A stretch of DNA of 64,000 nucleotides from the IMG/VR virus record IMGVR_UViG_3300021387_000087. The stretch is one strand, 5' to 3'. The position numbers and the translations under genes are program-made. This document shows positions 25,302 through 56,190 of this stretch, piece after piece. Source of the DNA: a virus. Its lineage: Duplodnaviria > Caudoviricetes. The notes beneath the pieces are model-generated. The model saw nothing but the letters and a program-made list of their open reading frames with translations. It did no database searches and had not been told where the DNA came from. The stretch's first letter is position 1; every line of letters starts with the position of its first letter.

Positions 25302-26370
25302 AATTAAATAATTTATTGGGAAATGAGAAATAGAGCGTATGGGGATAAAACTGGTAGGGGGAAGGGGGTATGTAAATTGATTAGTGGTTTTGATTTTATT
25401 GTGGAATAGAGGTGGAATGGAATCGGTGGTGTGTGGATGAAGGACATTCCCCTGGGATCCAGTCCTGGAGCGGGTTAGCGGTTACAAATACCCCCCTTTA
25501 AAACTCGTGTAAATTATGATTTAAGTTAGGTTAGAAATATGGTGTAATAATAGTGTAAAAAGAATTTTCGCACGAAAAAGGCACGCGGTTCGTGCACGTG
25601 CGAAAAAACGTTTTGCGGACTGCATGCCCTGCATGCACTCCAAACACATTGAACACAACCCTAACGCGTGCGCTTGTTACGAGAACGCAAGCGCAGTAGC
25701 CATAGACAAGCCTAACACGCTTGTTAAATATTCATTGCTATAGGAATGAACGCGTTATATAGGGACTACAATTGAAACACGGCAGGCAGTAGCCGTAAAA
25801 GGACTATTGAAACAAGCGCATAGAATCACGTGATAGTAACGCGCATGATAGATAGAACCGTTCAATCCATACTGCGCAGGCATGCAATGCAAGACAGTTA
25901 CTTTACTAACGCGGTTGATGCATCCATTTTTCCGAACGCAAAACCGCCAACTCACGCGCAGGTTAGACGCGCAGTCCATAAACGGCTACAGCCATACGAC
26001 AGTGGGAATAGCACTGTAAAGCCCTATCTCGACAGGGCGGTTTACACGTTCGAGACTTCATAATTTATTCGCTTATGTTATACGGCAGAAACACTGCCTA
26101 TGCATACGCAGGATAGCTGATTTAAAACATAGTGACTTGTAACACGGTAAAACGTGTGCGGACGGTAAAACGTCCTAACTATAATTTTAGATTTTGCCCT
26201 GCGATTAAGGAATAAGCGCGTACACGGTATGATTGTATTCTGTGCAGACTCATTAACCTATAGCCATACGGCAGGATACAAACATACGCGTTAAACGTGA
26301 ACACTTAATAGTACGAAGTACATGTTAAAAGTATCATGTATGTATTGAATAGTAGTTATTCAATCTGTAC

Positions 26371-27105
26371 ATGATACTTTTAAAGTATCTGAAAAACTAT
26401 CATTATTTTATTTTTAGCGCACTGCGCAGGAAGGAAGGTATCATGGGTATCAAAAAGAACATTGTCAAGGCTATGGCTACTACTAATTTTAATGCTACAC
26501 TTTTCACTTATGCGGAAAATATCGAAACTATCCGCACTAATGCGTCTATCGAATTGGATATTCTCGCACAGTGGGACGCGGATCACAACTATGCAGATAC
26601 TGTGCGTGCAGGTCTGAAAAAGCACGCAACCATTGAGCAGAAAAAGCGTGCAGAAGATATCAAAATTGCACGTGCAGAATATCGTGAGTCCCTGCCGTAT
26701 GCGGATATTATCCGCGGACTGAACGCGGACTGTGCAAAAGCGGTTACTGCACTGTGTGGCGCGAAAAAGTCTGCACGCTATGCACTTGTTGAAACTGCAT
26801 ACAATGAGTATGTCAAGACGGCAGGCAGTTTTTCCGCAACACATAATAGCTTCGAGACAGCACTCGGAAACATCCTGCTTAATGCGGACGGTCTTAATCT
26901 GCGCACTGACGCAAAAACTGCACGTAATATGGCAGGCAGGCTTGCTAACATGTTCGGCGTTTCCTGCGCGTCTACTACTGCACTCGGAAAAGGTACGGAC
27001 GTTTCCGGTCTGTCTGTGCTTACGCTTGCACAGTTTAGAAAACTGCTTGTGCGCGGTCTGTCTGCGCTTGCTGTTTCTGGTACTGTTGATATTTCTGCAC
27101 AGTAA
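26371..27105 (+). CDS. Hypothetical Ala-rich protein, first gene of the rightward arm
   Basis: AAGGAAGG RBS before the ATG at 26443 (probable true start); followed by a terminator. Confidence 0.7.
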   Translation: MILLKYLKNYHYFIFSALRRKEGIMGIKKNIVKAMATTNFNATLFTYAENIETIRTNASIELDILAQWDADHNYADTVRAGLKKHATIEQKKRAEDIKIARAEYRESLPYADIIRGLNADCAKAVTALCGAKKSARYALVETAYNEYVKTAGSFSATHNSFETALGNILLNADGLNLRTDAKTARNMAGRLANMFGVSCASTTALGKGTDVSGLSVLTLAQFRKLLVRGLSALAVSGTVDISAQ

Positions 27106-51569: not shown

Positions 51570-51653
51570 GGGACGCATACAGCAAAAAGTAAATAATCTA
51601 ATCAAGAATAAAAAAGCATTATGTTTTTCAATGGCATTCCTCCTAGCGTCCTG
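51570..51653 (+). ncRNA. Stand-alone ACAGCAA-module RNA A
   Basis: GGGACGC-AT-ACAGCAA ... GCGTCCT-G. Confidence 0.7.
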
Positions 51654-51678
51654 TATAAAAGAAAATAAAATTAAATAA

Positions 51679-51799
51679 CCACCCATAGTCTAATTGGTTA
51701 AAACGCTTAGCATAACAAATCATGATTGTGATTTTTACAGCAAATTATTTGCGTTCTCCTGTCCCGAGAGAGTTGATGGTTCGAGTCCATCTGGGTGGG
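51679..51799 (+). tRNA. tRNA-Asp(GTC)-like RNA with 48-nt ACAGCAA-module insertion (51708-51755)
   Basis: Acceptor CCACCCA/TGGGTGG, D arm, CT|CTC-CTGTCCC-GAGAG, T arm GATGG-TTCGAGT-CCATC. Confidence 0.8.
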
Positions 51800-51803
51800 T
51801 TTT

Positions 51804-51862
51804 GGGACTCATACAGCATAAAACAGACTGATAATCTGCTTGCCATGAAATGGCGAGTCCTG
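51804..51862 (+). ncRNA. Stand-alone module RNA B with Ile(GAT)-like anticodon arm
   Basis: GGGACTC-AT-ACAGCAT ... CAGA-CTGATAA-TCTG ... GAGTCCT-G. Confidence 0.72.
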
Positions 51863-51869
51863 TTAATAT

Positions 51870-51990
51870 CTGTGCCTTAGTTCAGTGGTAGAACACTAAT
51901 GCAAAATGAATCATGAATGTGGTTCTCACAGCAAATATTTTGCTTCTATTGTGGATAGAGAGGTCGTAGGTTCGAGTCCTACAGGCACAG
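51870..51990 (+). tRNA. tRNA-His(GTG)-like RNA with 48-nt ACAGCAA-module insertion (51898-51945)
   Basis: CTGTGCCT/AGGCACAG, D arm GTTC/GAAC, CT|CTA-TTGTGGA-TAGAG, T arm GTAGG-TTCGAGT-CCTAC. Confidence 0.8.
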
Positions 51991-51996
51991 CTGACT

Positions 51997-52065
51997 GTGA
52001 CACTCACAGCAACAACAATATTCTACACCGTTAATCTGGGGACTGTAGAAACCCCAAGTGTCATG
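51997..52065 (+). ncRNA. Stand-alone module RNA C in the leader of the DUF2828-like gene
   Basis: GTGACAC-TC-ACAGCAA ... GTGTCAT-G directly before the RBS. Confidence 0.68.
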
Positions 52066-52085
52066 AAAGGAAAAGGTATTTTATT

Positions 52086-53594
52086 ATGAATTTTGCACAG
52101 GCGATTAAAAATGAAACAAAATGGACAAGGACTGAAAACGGAGCTGTTGCACTGAAGACAACAGATGATGCGCTGCTTGACCTCTTTGGTACAATTGGTG
52201 CTTTGAGAAATGCAGACGAAGCACGCATTACATCACTTTTTGAGGAAGCGTATAACGCAAATCCTCTGTATGCTACAAAGATTCTTTTCTACGCAAGAGA
52301 TATTCGTGGAGATGAAGAGACTCAGGGTCTTGGAGAGAGACGTGTATTCAGAATTATTCTGAAATATTGTGCACTGCATCATCCTAAGGCAATTCGTCCC
52401 AATCTTGATTTGATTGGTGCCTATGGTCGCTACGATGACCTGTATGAACTGATCGGCACTCCTCTGGAAAATGAGATGTGGACTGCTATGAAGAAGCAGT
52501 TTGAAGAAGACCTTGATAATATGTCAAAAGGGAACGCAATCTCTCTTCTGGCTAAGTGGATCAAGACTGCTGATGCTTCTTCACCTAAGACAAGGGCGCT
52601 TGGTAAGTTGACCGCACAGAAACTTGGATATGATGTATATAACTTCAAGCGTATCGTGCGTGCAATGCGTAAGCAGATTGGCATTGTTGAAGCACTGATG
52701 TCTACTGGACGTTGGGATGAGATTAAGTATTCTGAAGTTCCGTCCAGAGCAATGCTTATTTACAGAAATGCTTTTAGAAAGCATGATGAAGAGCGTTTTA
52801 ATCAGTTCGCACAGAAAGCTGTTACTGGAGAAGAGAAAATTAATTCTGGTACACTGTTTCCTTACGATATTGTAAGTAGATATGCTAGTCGTAATTGGTA
52901 TGATGGAAAATGGTATACTGGCTCTAATTTGAATGAAACAGAAGAGAATGTTCTTCAAGCACAGTGGGATCAGCTTCCTAATTATGTAGACGAAGGTACT
53001 AATGCTCTGGTCATTGCAGATACTTCTGGTTCTATGAGTGGGCGTCCAATGGATACAGCTGTTAGTTTGGCAATCTATTTTGCTCAGAGAAACCATGGAG
53101 CATTTAAAAATCTGTGGATGAATTTCAGCTCTCGTCCTTCTTATCAGCAAATTAAAGGGAAGACACTGAAGCAGATTCTTAATAATATTAATTATAGTAA
53201 TTGGGGTAATAGTACCAATTGCAAGGCTGCTTTTGAAATGATTCTAGATACGGCTATTCAGTATCATATTCCTCAGGAAGATATGCCCAAGGCATTGGTT
53301 ATTATTTCTGATATGGAATTTGATTACTGTGGTGGTGAAAATTGGACGTTCTATGATCAGATGAGGAGTGAATTCGCTAGAAATGGTTATGAGATTCCTT
53401 CTGTTATCTTTTGGGATGTCGAGAGCCGTCATGATGTATTCCACGCAGATAAGAATCGCAAGGGAGTTATCCTTGTCAGTGGTCAGAGTGCTGGAACATT
53501 TAAGAATTTGATCGGAGCAATTGGTATGAGTCCTATGGATTTCGTAATGCAGGTTGTCAACGCAAAACGATATGAACCGATTACGGTCGGATAA
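52086..53594 (+). CDS. DUF2828-like protein (TROVE/Ro60-like helical region + vWA domain)
   Basis: RTENGA, FYARDIRG..GLGERRVF, YGRYDDL, LLAKW, YSEVPSRAM; vWA MIDAS DTSGSM, ST, ISDMEFD. Confidence 0.85.
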   Translation: MNFAQAIKNETKWTRTENGAVALKTTDDALLDLFGTIGALRNADEARITSLFEEAYNANPLYATKILFYARDIRGDEETQGLGERRVFRIILKYCALHHPKAIRPNLDLIGAYGRYDDLYELIGTPLENEMWTAMKKQFEEDLDNMSKGNAISLLAKWIKTADASSPKTRALGKLTAQKLGYDVYNFKRIVRAMRKQIGIVEALMSTGRWDEIKYSEVPSRAMLIYRNAFRKHDEERFNQFAQKAVTGEEKINSGTLFPYDIVSRYASRNWYDGKWYTGSNLNETEENVLQAQWDQLPNYVDEGTNALVIADTSGSMSGRPMDTAVSLAIYFAQRNHGAFKNLWMNFSSRPSYQQIKGKTLKQILNNINYSNWGNSTNCKAAFEMILDTAIQYHIPQEDMPKALVIISDMEFDYCGGENWTFYDQMRSEFARNGYEIPSVIFWDVESRHDVFHADKNRKGVILVSGQSAGTFKNLIGAIGMSPMDFVMQVVNAKRYEPITVG

Positions 53595-53599
53595 TTCAT

Positions 53600-54290
53600 A
53601 TAGTGGATACAGACACTTAAAATCTGTATCATAAGCGCCGATGGACGCTATATATTCCATTCAATTATGCGTCATGATCGTGACGCATGCACAGCAACGC
53701 ACACAAGATTGGGGAACGTGAGTACGGGTGAAGATATTAAGATCTTTGCTTTAAGGGTGCCAGAAATGGCTTCTAAGTACAATTCAAAGGAACTGGTGCC
53801 CGCACTGGTTCGCCGTATACTCGGCTTTAATCGAGCCAAATGCTCGGTTAACAGGAAACCGGAACCTGTACAAAAAACACACACTGGGCATATAATTGGC
53901 GGCATGCACGGAACAGCCTAAGAACCGCAAGGGACATATAGTTATTCAGATTTCATTGGTTTTACTAATCAGAGTAACATTACTCAGATTTCATTGGTTT
54001 TACTAATCAGAATAGCTATATAGCGCATCACATCGAAGATCCCTAGACATGCAAGTGATGTAAACCGCAGAATGGATGATGCGGCATAAAAATGATCAAC
54101 CATCCTGTATGAGTAGGGGATAGGAAGAGTGAATCCGGCTACATACAGTGAGACCTAAAGCCCCTGATGTGAATGGGACTATGCGTGATTGTTTTCAGAC
54201 TAAAACACATCTAAAACGCTAGGCAAAACAGGCTTTGCACATCACATGTATCTAGCCTGTGTACACTTCTCTGTGATGTGCATTATTTAA
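53600..54290 (+). ncRNA. Candidate long structured ncRNA(s) with an ACAGCAA module near the 5' end
   Basis: No credible CDS; ATGCGTCAT-GATC-GTGACGCAT-GC-ACAGCAA at 53667-53697; many stems; duplicated 28-nt unit. Confidence 0.5.
53946..54011 (+). repeat. Two identical 28-nt direct repeats, period 38
   Basis: TCAGATTTCATTGGTTTTACTAATCAGA at 53946 and 53984. Confidence 0.9.
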
Positions 54291-54425
54291 AAGGTGCTAC
54301 AAAACAATTATAAATTATATGAATTTGACATTGAGAGTCTATATAATAAATAAGGTAAGAGTAGTAGTTAAATGGAGTTTGATGAACAGCCTTTTTAAAG
54401 TAATGTGATATAGAGAAGTTAATAT

Positions 54426-54516
54426 GCCACTATAAGCCTAATTGGTAAGGCAGTAGTCTTGAAAACTACCAGTAATCGTGATGAGCGATGTTCCTGTTCG
54501 AGTCGGGATAGTGGCG
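54426..54516 (+). tRNA. tRNA-Ser(TGA)
   Basis: GTAGT-CTTGAAA-ACTAC; long variable arm. Confidence 0.88.
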
Positions 54517-54611
54517 TATAATTCAGGCTTGAGTAAGAGGACTCTGTAAGTAGTTGATAGTGGAACAATAACCTGAATTAAAGAATGTATAATTAAAAGG
54601 TGGTGTGACAT

Positions 54612-55145
54612 GTGGAATATAAGAAAGAACCTGTCAAAGGATATGAAGAATATCAGGTAGACACTAATGGAATTGTTTATGGTAAAAATGGTAAGCCATT
54701 AAAATATTCGTTAAATCATAAAGGATATTGTATTATAAACTTTTCAATTAATGGTCAAGTAAAAGGATTTGCGATACATACATTAGTAGCTAAACAGTTT
54801 ATTCCTAATAACGATCCATCAAAATGGCAAGTAAATCATAAAGACGGAAATAAAGAAAATAATAATATTAGCAACCTTGAATGGGTCACTCCTGAAGAAA
54901 ACATAAAACATTCAAAAGAGGTGCTAGGAAATAATAATCTTGGTGCTAATAGTAGTCAAGCAAAACCTATAAAAGGTGTCAGTAAAAAAGATGGCACCGA
55001 AATATATTTTGATGCAATGTCAGATGGCGCACGTTTTTTAGCAAGAAAACACAATATTAAATTTATACATGCTAAATGTTCGTTGTGGCGTGCTTTAAGT
55101 GGTTGTAGAAAAAGTTATAAAGGATATTATTGGCAATATGTCTAA
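54612..55145 (+). CDS. NUMOD4-type HNH homing endonuclease
   Basis: VKGYEEYQVDTNG, HTLVAKQFI, VNHKDGNKENNNISNLEWVT. Confidence 0.9.
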   Translation: MEYKKEPVKGYEEYQVDTNGIVYGKNGKPLKYSLNHKGYCIINFSINGQVKGFAIHTLVAKQFIPNNDPSKWQVNHKDGNKENNNISNLEWVTPEENIKHSKEVLGNNNLGANSSQAKPIKGVSKKDGTEIYFDAMSDGARFLARKHNIKFIHAKCSLWRALSGCRKSYKGYYWQYV

Positions 55146-55153
55146 TAATAAAT

Positions 55154-55237
55154 GCCCCCTTGGTGGAACAGGAAGACACGCCGCATTTAAGCTGCGGTTC
55201 CGCAACAGGAGTGAGAGTTCAAATCTCTCAGGGGGTA
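55154..55237 (+). tRNA. tRNA-Leu(TAA)
   Basis: CCGCA-TTTAAGC-TGCGG; long variable arm. Confidence 0.88.
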
Positions 55238-55320
55238 TTCACAAAACAGAGATGAACGGAAAGCATGACTGTTTTGTACTGAAATATGCTCACATCTATA
55301 TGATGTATAAAACTTTCCAA

Positions 55321-55385
55321 GGGACACTTACAGCAAACTATAACAGAACAAGACTTGAAATCTTCTTTCTCTTAATAGTGTCCTG
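55321..55385 (+). ncRNA. Stand-alone module RNA E with Ser(TGA)-like anticodon arm
   Basis: GGGACAC-TT-ACAGCAA ... AAGA-CTTGAAA-TCTT ... GTGTCCT-G. Confidence 0.72.
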
Positions 55386-55396
55386 TAATTAAATAT

Positions 55397-55512
55397 GCCG
55401 ACCTTAGCTCAATGGTAGAGCACGTATGAATGGATTATGTTTGTAATCCTAACAGCAATTACTTCTTCCACTGGTAATGGCGTTGTTATTGGTTCGAATC
55501 CAATAGGTCGGC
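55397..55512 (+). tRNA. tRNA-Thr(GGT)-like RNA with 43-nt ACAGCAA-module insertion (55425-55467)
   Basis: GCCGACCT/AGGTCGGC, D arm GCTC/GAGC, CG|CCA-CTGGTAA-TGGCG, T arm ATTGG-TTCGAAT-CCAAT. Confidence 0.8.
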
Positions 55513-55517
55513 TTTCT

Positions 55518-55602
55518 GGGATTCGCACAGCAAAATAAAATGGATAAACAAAAATTCTGCAAAAATTTGAGTGAGTGGGTTCAAATCCCTAAACGAATCC
55601 TG
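55518..55602 (+). ncRNA. Stand-alone module RNA F with Cys(GCA)-like anticodon arm and T-loop remnant
   Basis: GGGATTC-GC-ACAGCAA ... AAATT-CTGCAAA-AATTT ... GGG-TTCAAAT-CCC ... GAATCCT-G. Confidence 0.72.
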
Positions 55603-55679
55603 TTTTGTAACTATAGCAGTGTCATGAATTATTTAAAAACGAAAAATATAAAACAAAACATTTAAAAAAGGTAAAACAA

Positions 55680-56085: not shown

Positions 56086-56152
56086 GGGACGCTTACAGCA
56101 AAGTTATTTGGGAATAGACTTTTAATCTATGTAACCGAAATAAAGCGTCCTG
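56086..56152 (+). ncRNA. Stand-alone module RNA G with Lys(TTT)-like anticodon arm
   Basis: GGGACGC-TT-ACAGCAA ... ATAGA-CTTTTAA-TCTAT ... GCGTCCT-G. Confidence 0.75.
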
Positions 56153-56190
56153 TTTAAAAGAAGTTAAGTTGTGCACAACTATTAAAAAGT

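What the first reader, a model, noticed from the sequence alone, without database searches (positions are those of the whole stretch)
51679..55512. Three tRNAs (Asp, His, Thr) interrupted at the same anticodon-stem position (28/29) by a 43-48 nt structured module
Seen: deleting 51708-51755, 51898-51945 and 55425-55467 restores perfect 5-bp anticodon stems (CT|CTC/GAGAG, CT|CTA/TAGAG, CG|CCA/TGGCG). Each insert has an outer stem, a 7-bp hairpin with a G-initiated tetraloop, then ACAGCAA, and ends in TT. The His and Thr copies can form 8-bp acceptor stems. Known: bacterial and phage tRNA introns are usually long self-splicing introns in the anticodon loop; these inserts are far too short and sit in the stem. 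Inference: they are either a new protein-dependent mini-intron type or permanently tagged tRNA mimics.
Basis: partly seen in the sequence, partly recalled or inferred. Interest (0 to 1): 0.9.

Follow-up and report, generated by a model that had tools for sequence, protein, structure and literature searches.

The report
Phage tRNAs carrying a Ro60-type handle
Three phage tRNA genes really are interrupted in the anticodon stem, but the insert is most likely a permanent docking handle for a Ro60-like ring protein encoded next to them, not an intron, which makes them tRNA-shaped relatives of Y RNAs in a layout I found in no paper.

Summary
Deleting 51708-51755, 51898-51945 and 55425-55467 gives canonical Asp(GUC), His(GUG) and Thr(GGU) cloverleafs. 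Each insert is a 7-bp hairpin, two bases, then ACAGCAA.

The same handle, a helix plus ACAGCAA, occurs six more times in 51.5-56.2 kb as stand-alone RNAs between tRNAs. There the helix is formed by the RNA ends, so the two forms are circular permutations. One more hairpin-form copy follows the DUF2828 gene.

The gene 52086-53594 (DUF2828 + vWA) folds like Ro60. In IMG/VR, 32 of 35 pattern-found handle-bearing loci carry a DUF2828 homologue. In 73 protein-found distant loci, ACAGCAA with an adjacent helix occurs 116 times on the gene strand and once on the other.

In cultured phages the neighbouring RNAs are permuted tRNA mimics that match Rfam YrlA below its threshold.

Best reading (0.6): the inserts are kept Y-RNA-type handles for the Ro60-like protein, and the RNAs are tRNA-topology Y RNAs. 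An intron reading is weak:
- the insert site varies;
- some identity features are off;
- near-complete relatives encode no RNA ligase.

Binding, processing and function are untested. Other agents of this scan reached the same reading on other genomes. I found no paper describing it.

The parts
51679..51799 (+). Handle-bearing tRNA-Asp(GUC)-like RNA. Insert 51708-51755, hairpin H 51717-51734, ACAGCAA 51737-51743.
   Evidence: Rfam tRNA 37.5 bits; cloverleaf after deletion. Position 37 is C and the D stem has one mismatch.
51871..51990 (+). Handle-bearing tRNA-His(GUG)-like RNA. Insert 51898-51945, hairpin H 51908-51925, ACAGCAA 51928-51934.
   Evidence: Rfam tRNA 47.9 bits; cloverleaf after deletion. 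The eighth acceptor pair is C-1:G73, not the G-1:C73 of bacterial tRNA-His.
55398..55512 (+). Handle-bearing tRNA-Thr(GGU)-like RNA. Insert 55425-55467, hairpin H 55432-55449, ACAGCAA 55452-55458.
   Evidence: Rfam tRNA 43.3 bits; cloverleaf after deletion. Relatives carry UGU in the same body.
52086..53594 (+). DUF2828 + DUF7788/vWA protein, Ro60-like fold: the proposed reader of the handle.
   Evidence: Pfam PF11443 3.9e-39 and PF25043 7.3e-38. AF2 model pLDDT 94.3. Top 11 listed Foldseek PDB hits are all Ro60/Rsr/TROVE, E 2.7e-8 to 3.1e-6, full length.
51570..51654 (+). Stand-alone handle RNA A (GGGACGC..ACAGCAA..GCGUCCUGU), starting 3 nt after tRNA-Gln.
51804..51863 (+). Stand-alone handle RNA B (ACAGCAU variant) with an anticodon-arm-like hairpin at 51824-51838 (loop CUGAUAA).
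51997..52065 (+). Stand-alone handle RNA C (GUGAC..GUCAUG variant) in the 5' UTR of the DUF2828 gene, ending 20 nt before the ATG.
   Evidence: The same variant sits before the gene in L002, L006 and L008.
53669..53697 (+). Hairpin-form handle (GCGUCAUGAUCGUGACGC, 4 nt, ACAGCAA) at the start of the roughly 800-nt non-coding stretch after the DUF2828 gene.
   Evidence: conserved in L001-L005 and L007.
55321..55386 (+). Stand-alone handle RNA D with an anticodon-arm-like hairpin at 55350-55364 (loop CUUGAAA).
   Evidence: Weak Rfam RF01414 hit, 23.8 bits, E 0.33.
55518..55603 (+). Stand-alone handle RNA E carrying a T-arm-like hairpin (GGGUUCAAAUCCC at 55577-55589), starting 5 nt after the Thr-like RNA.
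56086..56153 (+). Stand-alone handle RNA F with an anticodon-arm-like hairpin at 56114-56130 (loop CUUUUAA, as in tRNA-Lys).
   Evidence: MFE fold closes the end helix, z = -3.0.

Best explanation
The 43-48-nt inserts are retained protein-binding handles of the Y-RNA type, not introns. Each is a conserved helix H followed by a single-stranded ACAGCAA. It is grafted into the 5' strand of the anticodon stem of an otherwise complete tRNA. The Ro60-like DUF2828/vWA protein encoded at 52086-53594 is the inferred reader of this handle. The same handle closes six stand-alone small RNAs in the array; there H is formed by the RNA's own 5' and 3' ends, and the cargo is an anticodon-arm-like or T-arm-like hairpin. 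The interrupted tRNAs are therefore the circular permutation of YrlA-like phage Y RNAs: the ends lie at the acceptor stem and the handle is capped by a loop. Proposed course, all inferred: the tRNA array is transcribed; host RNase P and RNase Z release normal tRNAs, handle-bearing tRNAs and mini handle RNAs; the DUF2828 ring binds H/ACAGCAA, including the copy in its own 5' UTR (autoregulation); the particle then displays a tRNA body or anticodon loop to tRNA-directed host factors, as a tether, decoy or gate in the phage-host contest over tRNAs. Shown here: the anatomy, covariation, gene linkage, the Ro60-like fold, and the kinship of relatives' RNAs with YrlA. Inferred: binding, retention of the insert, and function.
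For: 1) The same module occurs in three contexts within 4.6 kb on one strand. 2) The permutation is consistent. The hairpin's U.G closing pair and loop G match the stand-alone RNAs' 5' G and 3' (C/A)UG(U). The A-U pair in the hairpin form corresponds to C-G in the end-helix form. In another lineage, stand-alone AAGAC..GUCUUG goes with embedded GUAUCUUG-loop-AAGAUAC. 3) Covariation in 32 distinct handle-bearing tRNAs: H is 98.7% paired with 4 of 7 pairs changed on both sides, and the acceptor, D and T stems are 97-100% paired; 0 of 500 shuffles reach the score. 4) Linkage: 32 of 35 pattern-found loci have a DUF2828 homologue in the locus, usually a few hundred nt downstream, against 3 of about 80 chance-pattern loci. 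In 73 protein-found distant loci, ACAGCAA occurs 166 times on the gene strand and 18 on the other, and 116 versus 1 with an adjacent helix; 46 of 73 loci carry one. 5) The protein folds like Ro60, and homologues are annotated 'Ro-like RNA binding protein' in mycobacteriophages. 6) In cultured phages (Enterococcus Porthos, mycobacteriophage Wamburgrxpress, E. coli phage bumzen), the RNAs beside the homologue have the order H, ACAGC(A/G)A, T arm, loop-closed acceptor stem, D arm, H'. In Porthos and Wamburgrxpress they match Rfam YrlA over the full model at E 3.5e-9 to 1.4e-5. YrlA and phage Yrl RNAs carry a GNCGAA/CGAA motif beside an end stem (PMC4201824, PMC12135203); variants here read ACGGCGAA and ACAGCGAA. 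7) Against decoding and splicing: the insert site is 28/29, 29/30 or 31/32 in relatives. The Asp-like RNA has C37 and the His-like has C-1:G73. L007's His-like body differs from the window's at only one other base (A26 to G) yet has anticodon GGG. A relative has a tRNA-like RNA whose anticodon arm is replaced by the hairpin (L002 8170-8270). 8) For Listeria phage CKA15, the homologue CKA15_055 is expressed, its best HHpred match is Rsr, and nearby non-coding regions are highly transcribed; the authors suggest Y RNAs (PMC12282133). Three handle RNAs lie at L204 2650-2915 behind a TTGACA promoter.
Against: There are no RNA or binding data for this phage, so retention of the insert is inferred. 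The exons are excellent tRNAs under strong purifying selection, and their anticodons (Asp, His, Thr-GGU) do not duplicate the 11 normal tRNAs of the array; that is what one expects of decoding tRNAs. The Thr GGU/UGU switch among relatives is synonymous. The window's own RNAs do not hit the YrlA model, and the relatives' hits are below the 69-bit gathering score. ACAGCAA is similar to the GNCGAA motif but not identical. Part of the hairpin conservation reflects the search pattern used. Handle-free DUF2828 lineages exist: 27 of 73 loci have no typed module.
Confidence: 0.6

Rival explanations
1. Protein-dependent mini-intron. The handle recruits the DUF2828 protein and/or host enzymes that cut at both junctions, and a ligase rejoins the exons to give mature decoding tRNAs.
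For: Exact deletion restores perfect cloverleafs. The anticodons complement the normal tRNA set. The tRNA bodies are strongly conserved. Ro60-type genes sit with RtcB in bacteria (PMC7790460), and Listeria phage cka15 has an RtcB 'tRNA splicing ligase' 1.3 kb downstream of its DUF2828 gene.
Against: The insert site varies among relatives (28/29, 29/30, 31/32), and I saw no conserved junction sequence. The same module works as stand-alone RNAs where nothing can be spliced. No RtcB or RNA_ligase (PF09414) was found in relatives that are 90% and 100% complete; the T4 Rnl1 search was uninformative because its control failed. C37, C-1:G73 and a GGG anticodon on a His-like body argue against decoding. 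No group I or other intron or ribozyme family was hit in Rfam.
Confidence: 0.12
2. Handle kept, tRNA still works. The RNAs are charged and used in translation, or are held in reserve, with the Ro60-like ring gating or shielding the anticodon arm, for example against host anticodon nucleases.
For: The tRNA is complete, with free acceptor ends, canonical tertiary nucleotides and mostly canonical anticodon loops with U33. The isoacceptors are non-redundant.
Against: An extra arm of about 45 nt at 28/29 should clash with the ribosomal sites that grip the anticodon stem; this is general knowledge and was not tested. Identity features are off in the Asp-like and His-like RNAs. Some relatives have A33 or A34 in the loop.
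Confidence: 0.12
3. An RNA processing or stability element that works without the DUF2828 protein, such as a recognition site for a host RNase or a transcript-end protector in the tRNA array.
For: Stand-alone copies start 3-6 nt after tRNA 3' ends and end 7-24 nt before the next tRNA, so they coincide with processing sites.
Against: The module tracks DUF2828 genes across phage families, including loci with few tRNAs and a copy in the gene's own 5' UTR. It shares its design with Ro60-binding Y RNA modules (PMC12135203).
Confidence: 0.08
4. Decaying tRNA pseudogenes hit by a short mobile repeat.
For: The Asp-like copy scores lowest (37.5 bits) and has a D-stem mismatch and C37.
Against: The inserts are conserved in place in phages whose DUF2828 proteins are only 60-80% identical. 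The tRNA bodies stay nearly unchanged (one base outside the anticodon differs between the window and L007), and the helices covary. Orientation and side (5' of the anticodon) are always the same.
Confidence: 0.03

Closest known systems
YrlA-type Y RNAs with Ro60/Rsr (Rfam RF02553; Chen et al. 2014, PMC4201824; Thermus phage phiLo Ro60 with Yrl1/Yrl2, PMC12135203)
   Same: A Ro60-fold TROVE+vWA protein is encoded beside small RNAs on the same strand. The RNA joins a protein-binding module (end stem plus a bulge with a short GNCGAA/CGAA-like motif) to a tRNA-like body with D and T arms. In cultured phages, the RNAs beside DUF2828 homologues match the YrlA model at E 3.5e-9 to 1.4e-5.
   Different: Here the topology is inverted: true tRNA ends at the acceptor stem, a real anticodon stem-loop, and the handle capped by a loop inside the anticodon stem. 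The motif is ACAGCAA. The protein belongs to Pfam DUF2828, not TROVE. The window's RNAs do not hit RF02553. Binding is untested.
tRNA introns: bacterial and phage group I introns in the anticodon loop; archaeal bulge-helix-bulge introns at non-canonical positions
   Same: An insertion in a tRNA gene whose exact removal restores a cloverleaf.
   Different: The insert is 43-48 nt, far too short for group I. It lies in the stem rather than the loop. I saw no conserved junction motif, and the position varies among relatives. No intron or ribozyme family matches. The same module exists as free RNAs.
Dictyostelium Class I RNAs (Rfam RF01414; Kjellin et al. 2021, PMC7919456)
   Same: This applies to the stand-alone copies only: a conserved 5' G, a terminal stem of about 6-7 bp, the adjacent motif (C)UUACAGCAA versus CCUUACAGCAA, a variable middle, a 3' CUGU, and a length of about 60-85 nt.
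   Different: One copy scores 23.8 bits (E 0.33; gathering 41.5), and none hit in other phage lineages. Class I RNAs are reported only in Dictyostelia, with an RRM protein partner. I did not verify that dictyostelids have a DUF2828 protein.

Membership tests
tRNA (Rfam RF00005) | Covariance-model score at or above the gathering score (29 bits) | tested here: met
   37.5, 47.9 and 43.3 bits, with a 58-61-nt local insertion.
tRNA (Rfam RF00005) | Acceptor, D and T stems with conserved tertiary nucleotides | tested here: met
   ARAGORN cloverleafs after deletion. Stems are 97-100% paired with compensatory changes in 32 relatives.
tRNA (Rfam RF00005) | Contiguous 5-bp anticodon stem in the transcript as encoded | tested here: not met
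   The stem is split 2+3 by 43-48 nt; ARAGORN does not call the genes.
tRNA (Rfam RF00005) | Canonical identity features: purine 37, and G-1:C73 for bacterial tRNA-His | tested here: not met
   The Asp-like loop is CUGUCCC (C37). The His-like RNA has C-1:G73. The Thr-like loop is canonical.
tRNA (Rfam RF00005) | Aminoacylation and decoding | not testable with these tools
   Needs acid-gel or charging assays.
Group I tRNA intron | Self-splicing fold of 200 nt or more, inserted in the anticodon loop | tested here: not met
   The inserts are 43-48 nt and lie in the stem; no Intron_gpI or ribozyme hit at E up to 10.
Enzyme-spliced (bulge-helix-bulge type) tRNA intron | Conserved junction structure at both splice sites | tested here: inconclusive
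   The junctions are A-rich and U-rich linkers with no conserved sequence that I saw, and the site varies 28/29, 29/30, 31/32. I ran no formal bulge-helix-bulge search.
Enzyme-spliced (bulge-helix-bulge type) tRNA intron | A splicing ligase available to the phage | tested here: not met
   No RtcB (PF01139) or RNA_ligase (PF09414) in relatives that are 90% and 100% complete. The PF09511 search was uninformative because its control was silent. Host enzymes were not examined.
YrlA / Y RNA (Rfam RF02553) | Encoded near a Ro60-like gene on the same strand | tested here: met
   The His-like RNA lies about 100 nt upstream, the Asp-like about 290 nt upstream, and the Thr-like about 1.8 kb downstream of a Ro60-fold gene.
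YrlA / Y RNA (Rfam RF02553) | Protein-binding module: a stem next to an unpaired GNCGAA/CGAA motif | tested here: inconclusive
   The design is the same (helix H, 2 nt, ACAGCAA). The motif differs by one or two bases; variants ACGGCGAA and ACAGCGAA occur in relatives.
YrlA / Y RNA (Rfam RF02553) | tRNA-like domain with T and D arms | tested here: met
YrlA / Y RNA (Rfam RF02553) | RNA ends in the protein-binding stem; acceptor stem closed by a loop | tested here: not met
   The topology is the opposite: ends at the acceptor stem and the handle closed by a loop. Permuted YrlA-like forms occur in cultured phages.
YrlA / Y RNA (Rfam RF02553) | Model score at or above the gathering score (69 bits) | tested here: not met
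   No hit in the window at E up to 10. RNAs beside homologues score 29-48 bits.
YrlA / Y RNA (Rfam RF02553) | Bound by the Ro60-like protein | not testable with these tools
   Needs RIP, CLIP or EMSA.
Ro60 / TROVE proteins (for the partner protein) | HEAT-repeat ring plus vWA fold | tested here: met
   Foldseek against Ro60, Rsr and phage Ro60: E 2.7e-8 to 3.1e-6, TM 0.47-0.59 (0.32 for the D. radiodurans Rsr crystal form, 2nvo), about 570 aligned columns.
Ro60 / TROVE proteins (for the partner protein) | Match to Pfam TROVE (PF05731) | tested here: not met
   Only DUF2828, DUF7788 and a weak VWA_2 hit at E up to 0.01. Sequence searches of the PDB find only vWA domains.
Dictyostelium Class I RNA (RF01414), stand-alone copies only | Model score at or above the gathering score (41.5 bits) | tested here: not met
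   23.8 bits, E 0.33, for 55322-55385 only; no hits in six other loci.

The most novel reading that the evidence does not exclude
The handle-bearing tRNAs and mini handle RNAs, loaded on the Ro60-like ring, are weapons in the fight over tRNAs. They display genuine anticodon loops (Asp and His of the QUN class, and Lys-, Asn- and Ser-like loops on the mini RNAs) either to soak up or sense host anticodon nucleases, or to keep a shielded reserve of usable tRNA. The stand-alone form may be the same RNA design as the unexplained Class I RNAs of social amoebae, which would give those RNAs a candidate TROVE-like partner.
Probability: 0.2. Interest if true: 0.9.

Novelty: new variant of a known kind. 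Interest (0 to 1): 0.75.

Why it matters
Ro60/Y-RNA particles are known from animals, bacteria and a few phages, but their RNA partners were thought to be tRNA mimics with closed acceptor stems.

- Complete tRNAs carry the handle here, so tRNA and Y RNA architectures interconvert by circular permutation.
- The DUF2828 family gains a defined RNA partner. It has over 6,000 50%-identity clusters and occurs in 705 cultured phages, including Felix O1-like coliphages and Listeria, Staphylococcus and Enterococcus phages.
- tRNA finders miss these genes, and annotators may call them intron-bearing or pseudo tRNAs.
- The system sits in phage tRNA arrays, where phage-host conflict over tRNA cleavage is played out, so it offers a testable route to a function for phage Ro60-like proteins.

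Tried and rejected
- A brute-force deletion scan with ARAGORN was too permissive to fix the insert site, so I used the exact deletions and hand parsing instead.
- No whole genome is held for the window.
- phmmer and profile searches of PDB sequences found only vWA domains; the Ro60 link needed the fold search.
- A profile-based scan of genome contigs failed because the alignment had no conserved stretch to search with.
- The ESM Atlas gave only DUF2828 clusters and no eukaryotic lead.
- A search for an uninterrupted allele of the Thr-like tRNA in IMG/VR by its exon junction found none. The pattern was exact, so this is weak evidence.
- BLAST of embedded forms against cultured phages found only an uncultured faecal phage fragment, so no isolate with the embedded form is in hand.
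- A self-cleaving ribozyme or theta/HDV-like element after tRNAs is rejected. Rfam gives no ribozyme hit, and the end helix closes the whole element with no room for a nested pseudoknot.
- A DNA-level promoter motif is rejected, because the two strands of helix H lie 60-90 nt apart and covary.
- Class I RNA membership is not supported beyond one weak hit.
- Avesson et al. 2011, which lists the Class I RNA-binding proteins, is not in the library.
- The literature search on 'DUF2828' returned only unrelated plant and tardigrade papers.

Full report
**Observation.** The window carries a phage tRNA array at 51.5-59 kb, all on the + strand. ARAGORN ordinary tRNAs there.

The Rfam tRNA model finds three more: 51679-51799 (37.5 bits), 51871-51990 (47.9) and 55398-55512 (43.3). 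Each has 58-61 nt where 13-15 nt of anticodon arm are expected.

Each insert contains:
- a 7-bp hairpin with a G-initiated tetraloop (51717-51734, 51908-51925, 55432-55449);
- two linker bases;
- ACAGCAA;
- a U-rich linker ending in UU.

The proposed outer stem is convincing only in the His copy.

**The insert is one copy of a repeated module.** ACAGCAA occurs nine times in 51.5-56.2 kb, always on the + strand and always beside a helix. A tenth copy at 51813 reads ACAGCAU.

Six copies are stand-alone elements of 59-86 nt: 51570-51654, 51804-51863, 51997-52065, 55321-55386, 55518-55603 and 56086-56153. Their layout is G(G/U)GAYNN, two or three bases, ACAGCAA, a variable middle, the complementary strand, then (C/A)UG(U). 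Four of them start 3-6 nt after a tRNA 3' end.

Their middles hold anticodon-arm-like hairpins with 7-nt loops (CUGAUAA, CUUGAAA, CUUUUAA) or a T-arm-like hairpin.

The hairpin of the inserts is this same helix written the other way round. Its 5' strand ends in (C/U)AUG and its 3' strand begins GU(G/A)A, so the loop sits where the stand-alone RNAs have their ends. The two forms are circular permutations of one design: helix H, then ACAGCAA, then a second stem. That second stem carries an anticodon loop, a T arm or a whole tRNA.

**The partner gene.** The ORF 52086-53594 lies between the His-like RNA and a long non-coding stretch. It is a DUF2828 + DUF7788/vWA protein. An AlphaFold model built on 63 homologues has pLDDT 94.3.

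Its best PDB matches over the full length are Ro60 from frog and human, Rsr from Deinococcus, and the Ro60 of Thermus phage phiLo (E 2.7e-8 to 3.1e-6, TM up to 0.59). Sequence methods alone do not see this.

Homologues occur in 705 cultured phages, and mycobacteriophage annotators call them 'Ro-like RNA binding protein'.

One stand-alone module, in a GUGAC..GUCAUG variant, always sits in the 5' UTR of the gene (window, L002, L006, L008). A hairpin-form module follows the gene at 53669-53697.

**Linkage beyond this window.** I scanned IMG/VR with the hairpin pattern and kept hits with four extra base pairs. This left 40 hits (about 2 expected) in 35 loci judged to be inside tRNAs. Of these, 32 carry a DUF2828 homologue (60-70% identical) in the locus, usually a few hundred nt downstream. 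Only 3 of about 80 chance-pattern loci do.

The reverse test used 73 loci found through distant proteins only (25-49% identical to the two distant query proteins). There ACAGCAA occurs 166 times on the gene strand and 18 on the other. With an adjacent helix the counts are 116 and 1, and 46 of 73 loci have at least one such module.

In those lineages helix H has a different sequence (AAGAC..GUCUUG or AACAC..GUGUUG). The embedded copies carry the matching permuted hairpin, for example in L130 2570-2812 and in L156 2742-2855, a tRNA with a UCA anticodon and the insert at 29/30.

In an alignment of 32 distinct handle-bearing tRNAs, H is 98.7% paired with compensatory changes at four of seven pairs. 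The tRNA stems are 97-100% paired. Part of the inner-pair conservation reflects my search pattern.

**Relation to Y RNAs.** In cultured phages the DUF2828 gene sits in or beside the tRNA array: Listeria cka15, E. coli bumzen, Bacillus Skywalker and Enterococcus Porthos.

All of these, and mycobacteriophage Wamburgrxpress, have handle RNAs beside the gene. In Porthos, Wamburgrxpress and bumzen some of the RNAs read, in order:
- H 5' strand;
- ACAGC(A/G)A;
- T arm;
- acceptor stem closed by a loop;
- D arm;
- H 3' strand.

The Porthos and Wamburgrxpress RNAs match Rfam YrlA over the whole model at E 3.5e-9, 7.6e-6 and 1.4e-5, below the gathering score.

Published Y RNAs of bacteria and phages have an end stem next to an unpaired GNCGAA/CGAA motif that is taken to bind Ro60 (PMC4201824, PMC12135203). 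The module here has the same design with ACAGCAA, and variants read ACGGCGAA and ACAGCGAA.

For Listeria phage CKA15, the homologue CKA15_055 is expressed, its best HHpred match is Rsr, and nearby non-coding regions are very highly transcribed. The authors suggest Y RNAs without defining them (PMC12282133). Three handle RNAs lie just upstream of that gene behind a TTGACA promoter.

**Intron or handle.** Nothing positive supports splicing:
- the insert site is not fixed (28/29, 29/30, 31/32);
- I saw no conserved sequence at the junctions;
- Rfam finds no intron or ribozyme;
- relatives that are 90% and 100% complete encode no RtcB or Rnl2-type ligase, and the Rnl1 search had a silent control;
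- the module also exists where there is nothing to splice.

Several features argue against ordinary decoding. The Asp-like loop has C37. The His-like RNA has C-1:G73 rather than G-1:C73. L007 keeps the His-like body (one other base, A26 to G, differs) but has anticodon GGG. Some relatives have A33 or A34. L002 8170-8270 is a tRNA-like RNA whose anticodon arm is replaced by the hairpin.

Against my reading, the exons are very good tRNAs and their anticodons do not duplicate the other eleven. Only RNA data can settle retention.

**Verdict.** The three interrupted tRNAs are real. They are most likely tRNA-topology members of an undescribed, widespread family of Y-RNA-like partner RNAs of the Ro60-like DUF2828 proteins. 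The kind (Ro60/Y RNA, with YrlA tRNA mimics) is known. The new elements are the handle motif, the complete-tRNA layout and the mini RNAs that display anticodon arms.

My literature searches found no description. Other agents of this scan reached the same reading on other genomes; I looked at those notes only after forming mine.

The likeness of the stand-alone form to Dictyostelium Class I RNAs (5' G, end stem, CCUUACAGCAA, 3' CUGU) rests on one weak model hit that did not recur. It is a lead only.

Noticed in passing
window 53600-54420: About 800 nt with no credible ORF after the DUF2828 gene. It starts with the hairpin-form handle at 53669-53697 and holds two copies of a roughly 28-nt direct repeat at about 53939-54019. 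No Rfam family matches at a meaningful score.
   Followed up: partly
window 54612-55145: An HNH endonuclease ORF (PF13392, 1.7e-11) inside the tRNA array, resembling free-standing homing endonucleases of Staphylococcus, Enterococcus and Vibrio phages.
   Followed up: no
L204 1461-2012 (Listeria phage cka15, OR088597.1 about 26,195-26,746): A ROOL RNA match at 90.1 bits, just under the 99.1-bit gathering score (E 4e-17). It coincides with the highly transcribed 'non-coding' region 26,236-26,727 that PMC12282133 first annotated as three CDSs.
   Followed up: partly
L008 and L009 7592-7660: An int-alpA RNA (RF02996, 51.1 bits, above gathering) lies about 150 nt after the DUF2828 gene in a 62%-identical relative.
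   Followed up: no
L156 2742-2855: A handle-bearing tRNA with anticodon UCA (opal-suppressor-like) and the insert at 29/30, in a distant DUF2828 lineage. ARAGORN finds no tRNA there.
   Followed up: partly
L007 5785-5902: The His-like handle-bearing tRNA has anticodon GGG instead of GUG. Its body differs from the window's at only one other base (A26 to G).
   Followed up: partly
L128 378-1649; L204 5843-7054: RNA-repair enzymes lie near DUF2828 genes in other phages: an RNA-ligase-like gene (weak PF09414) 2.3 kb upstream in L128, and an RtcB 'tRNA splicing ligase' 1.3 kb downstream in Listeria phage cka15.
   Followed up: no
L200-L202 (giant-virus MAG contigs): DUF2828-like matches (25-30% identity) occur on giant-virus metagenome contigs, so the protein family reaches viruses of eukaryotes.
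   Followed up: no
PMC12282133 (Listeria phage CKA15): The DUF2828 homologue CKA15_055 was detected by mass spectrometry in purified virions (57% coverage), although it is not a structural-module gene.
   Followed up: no
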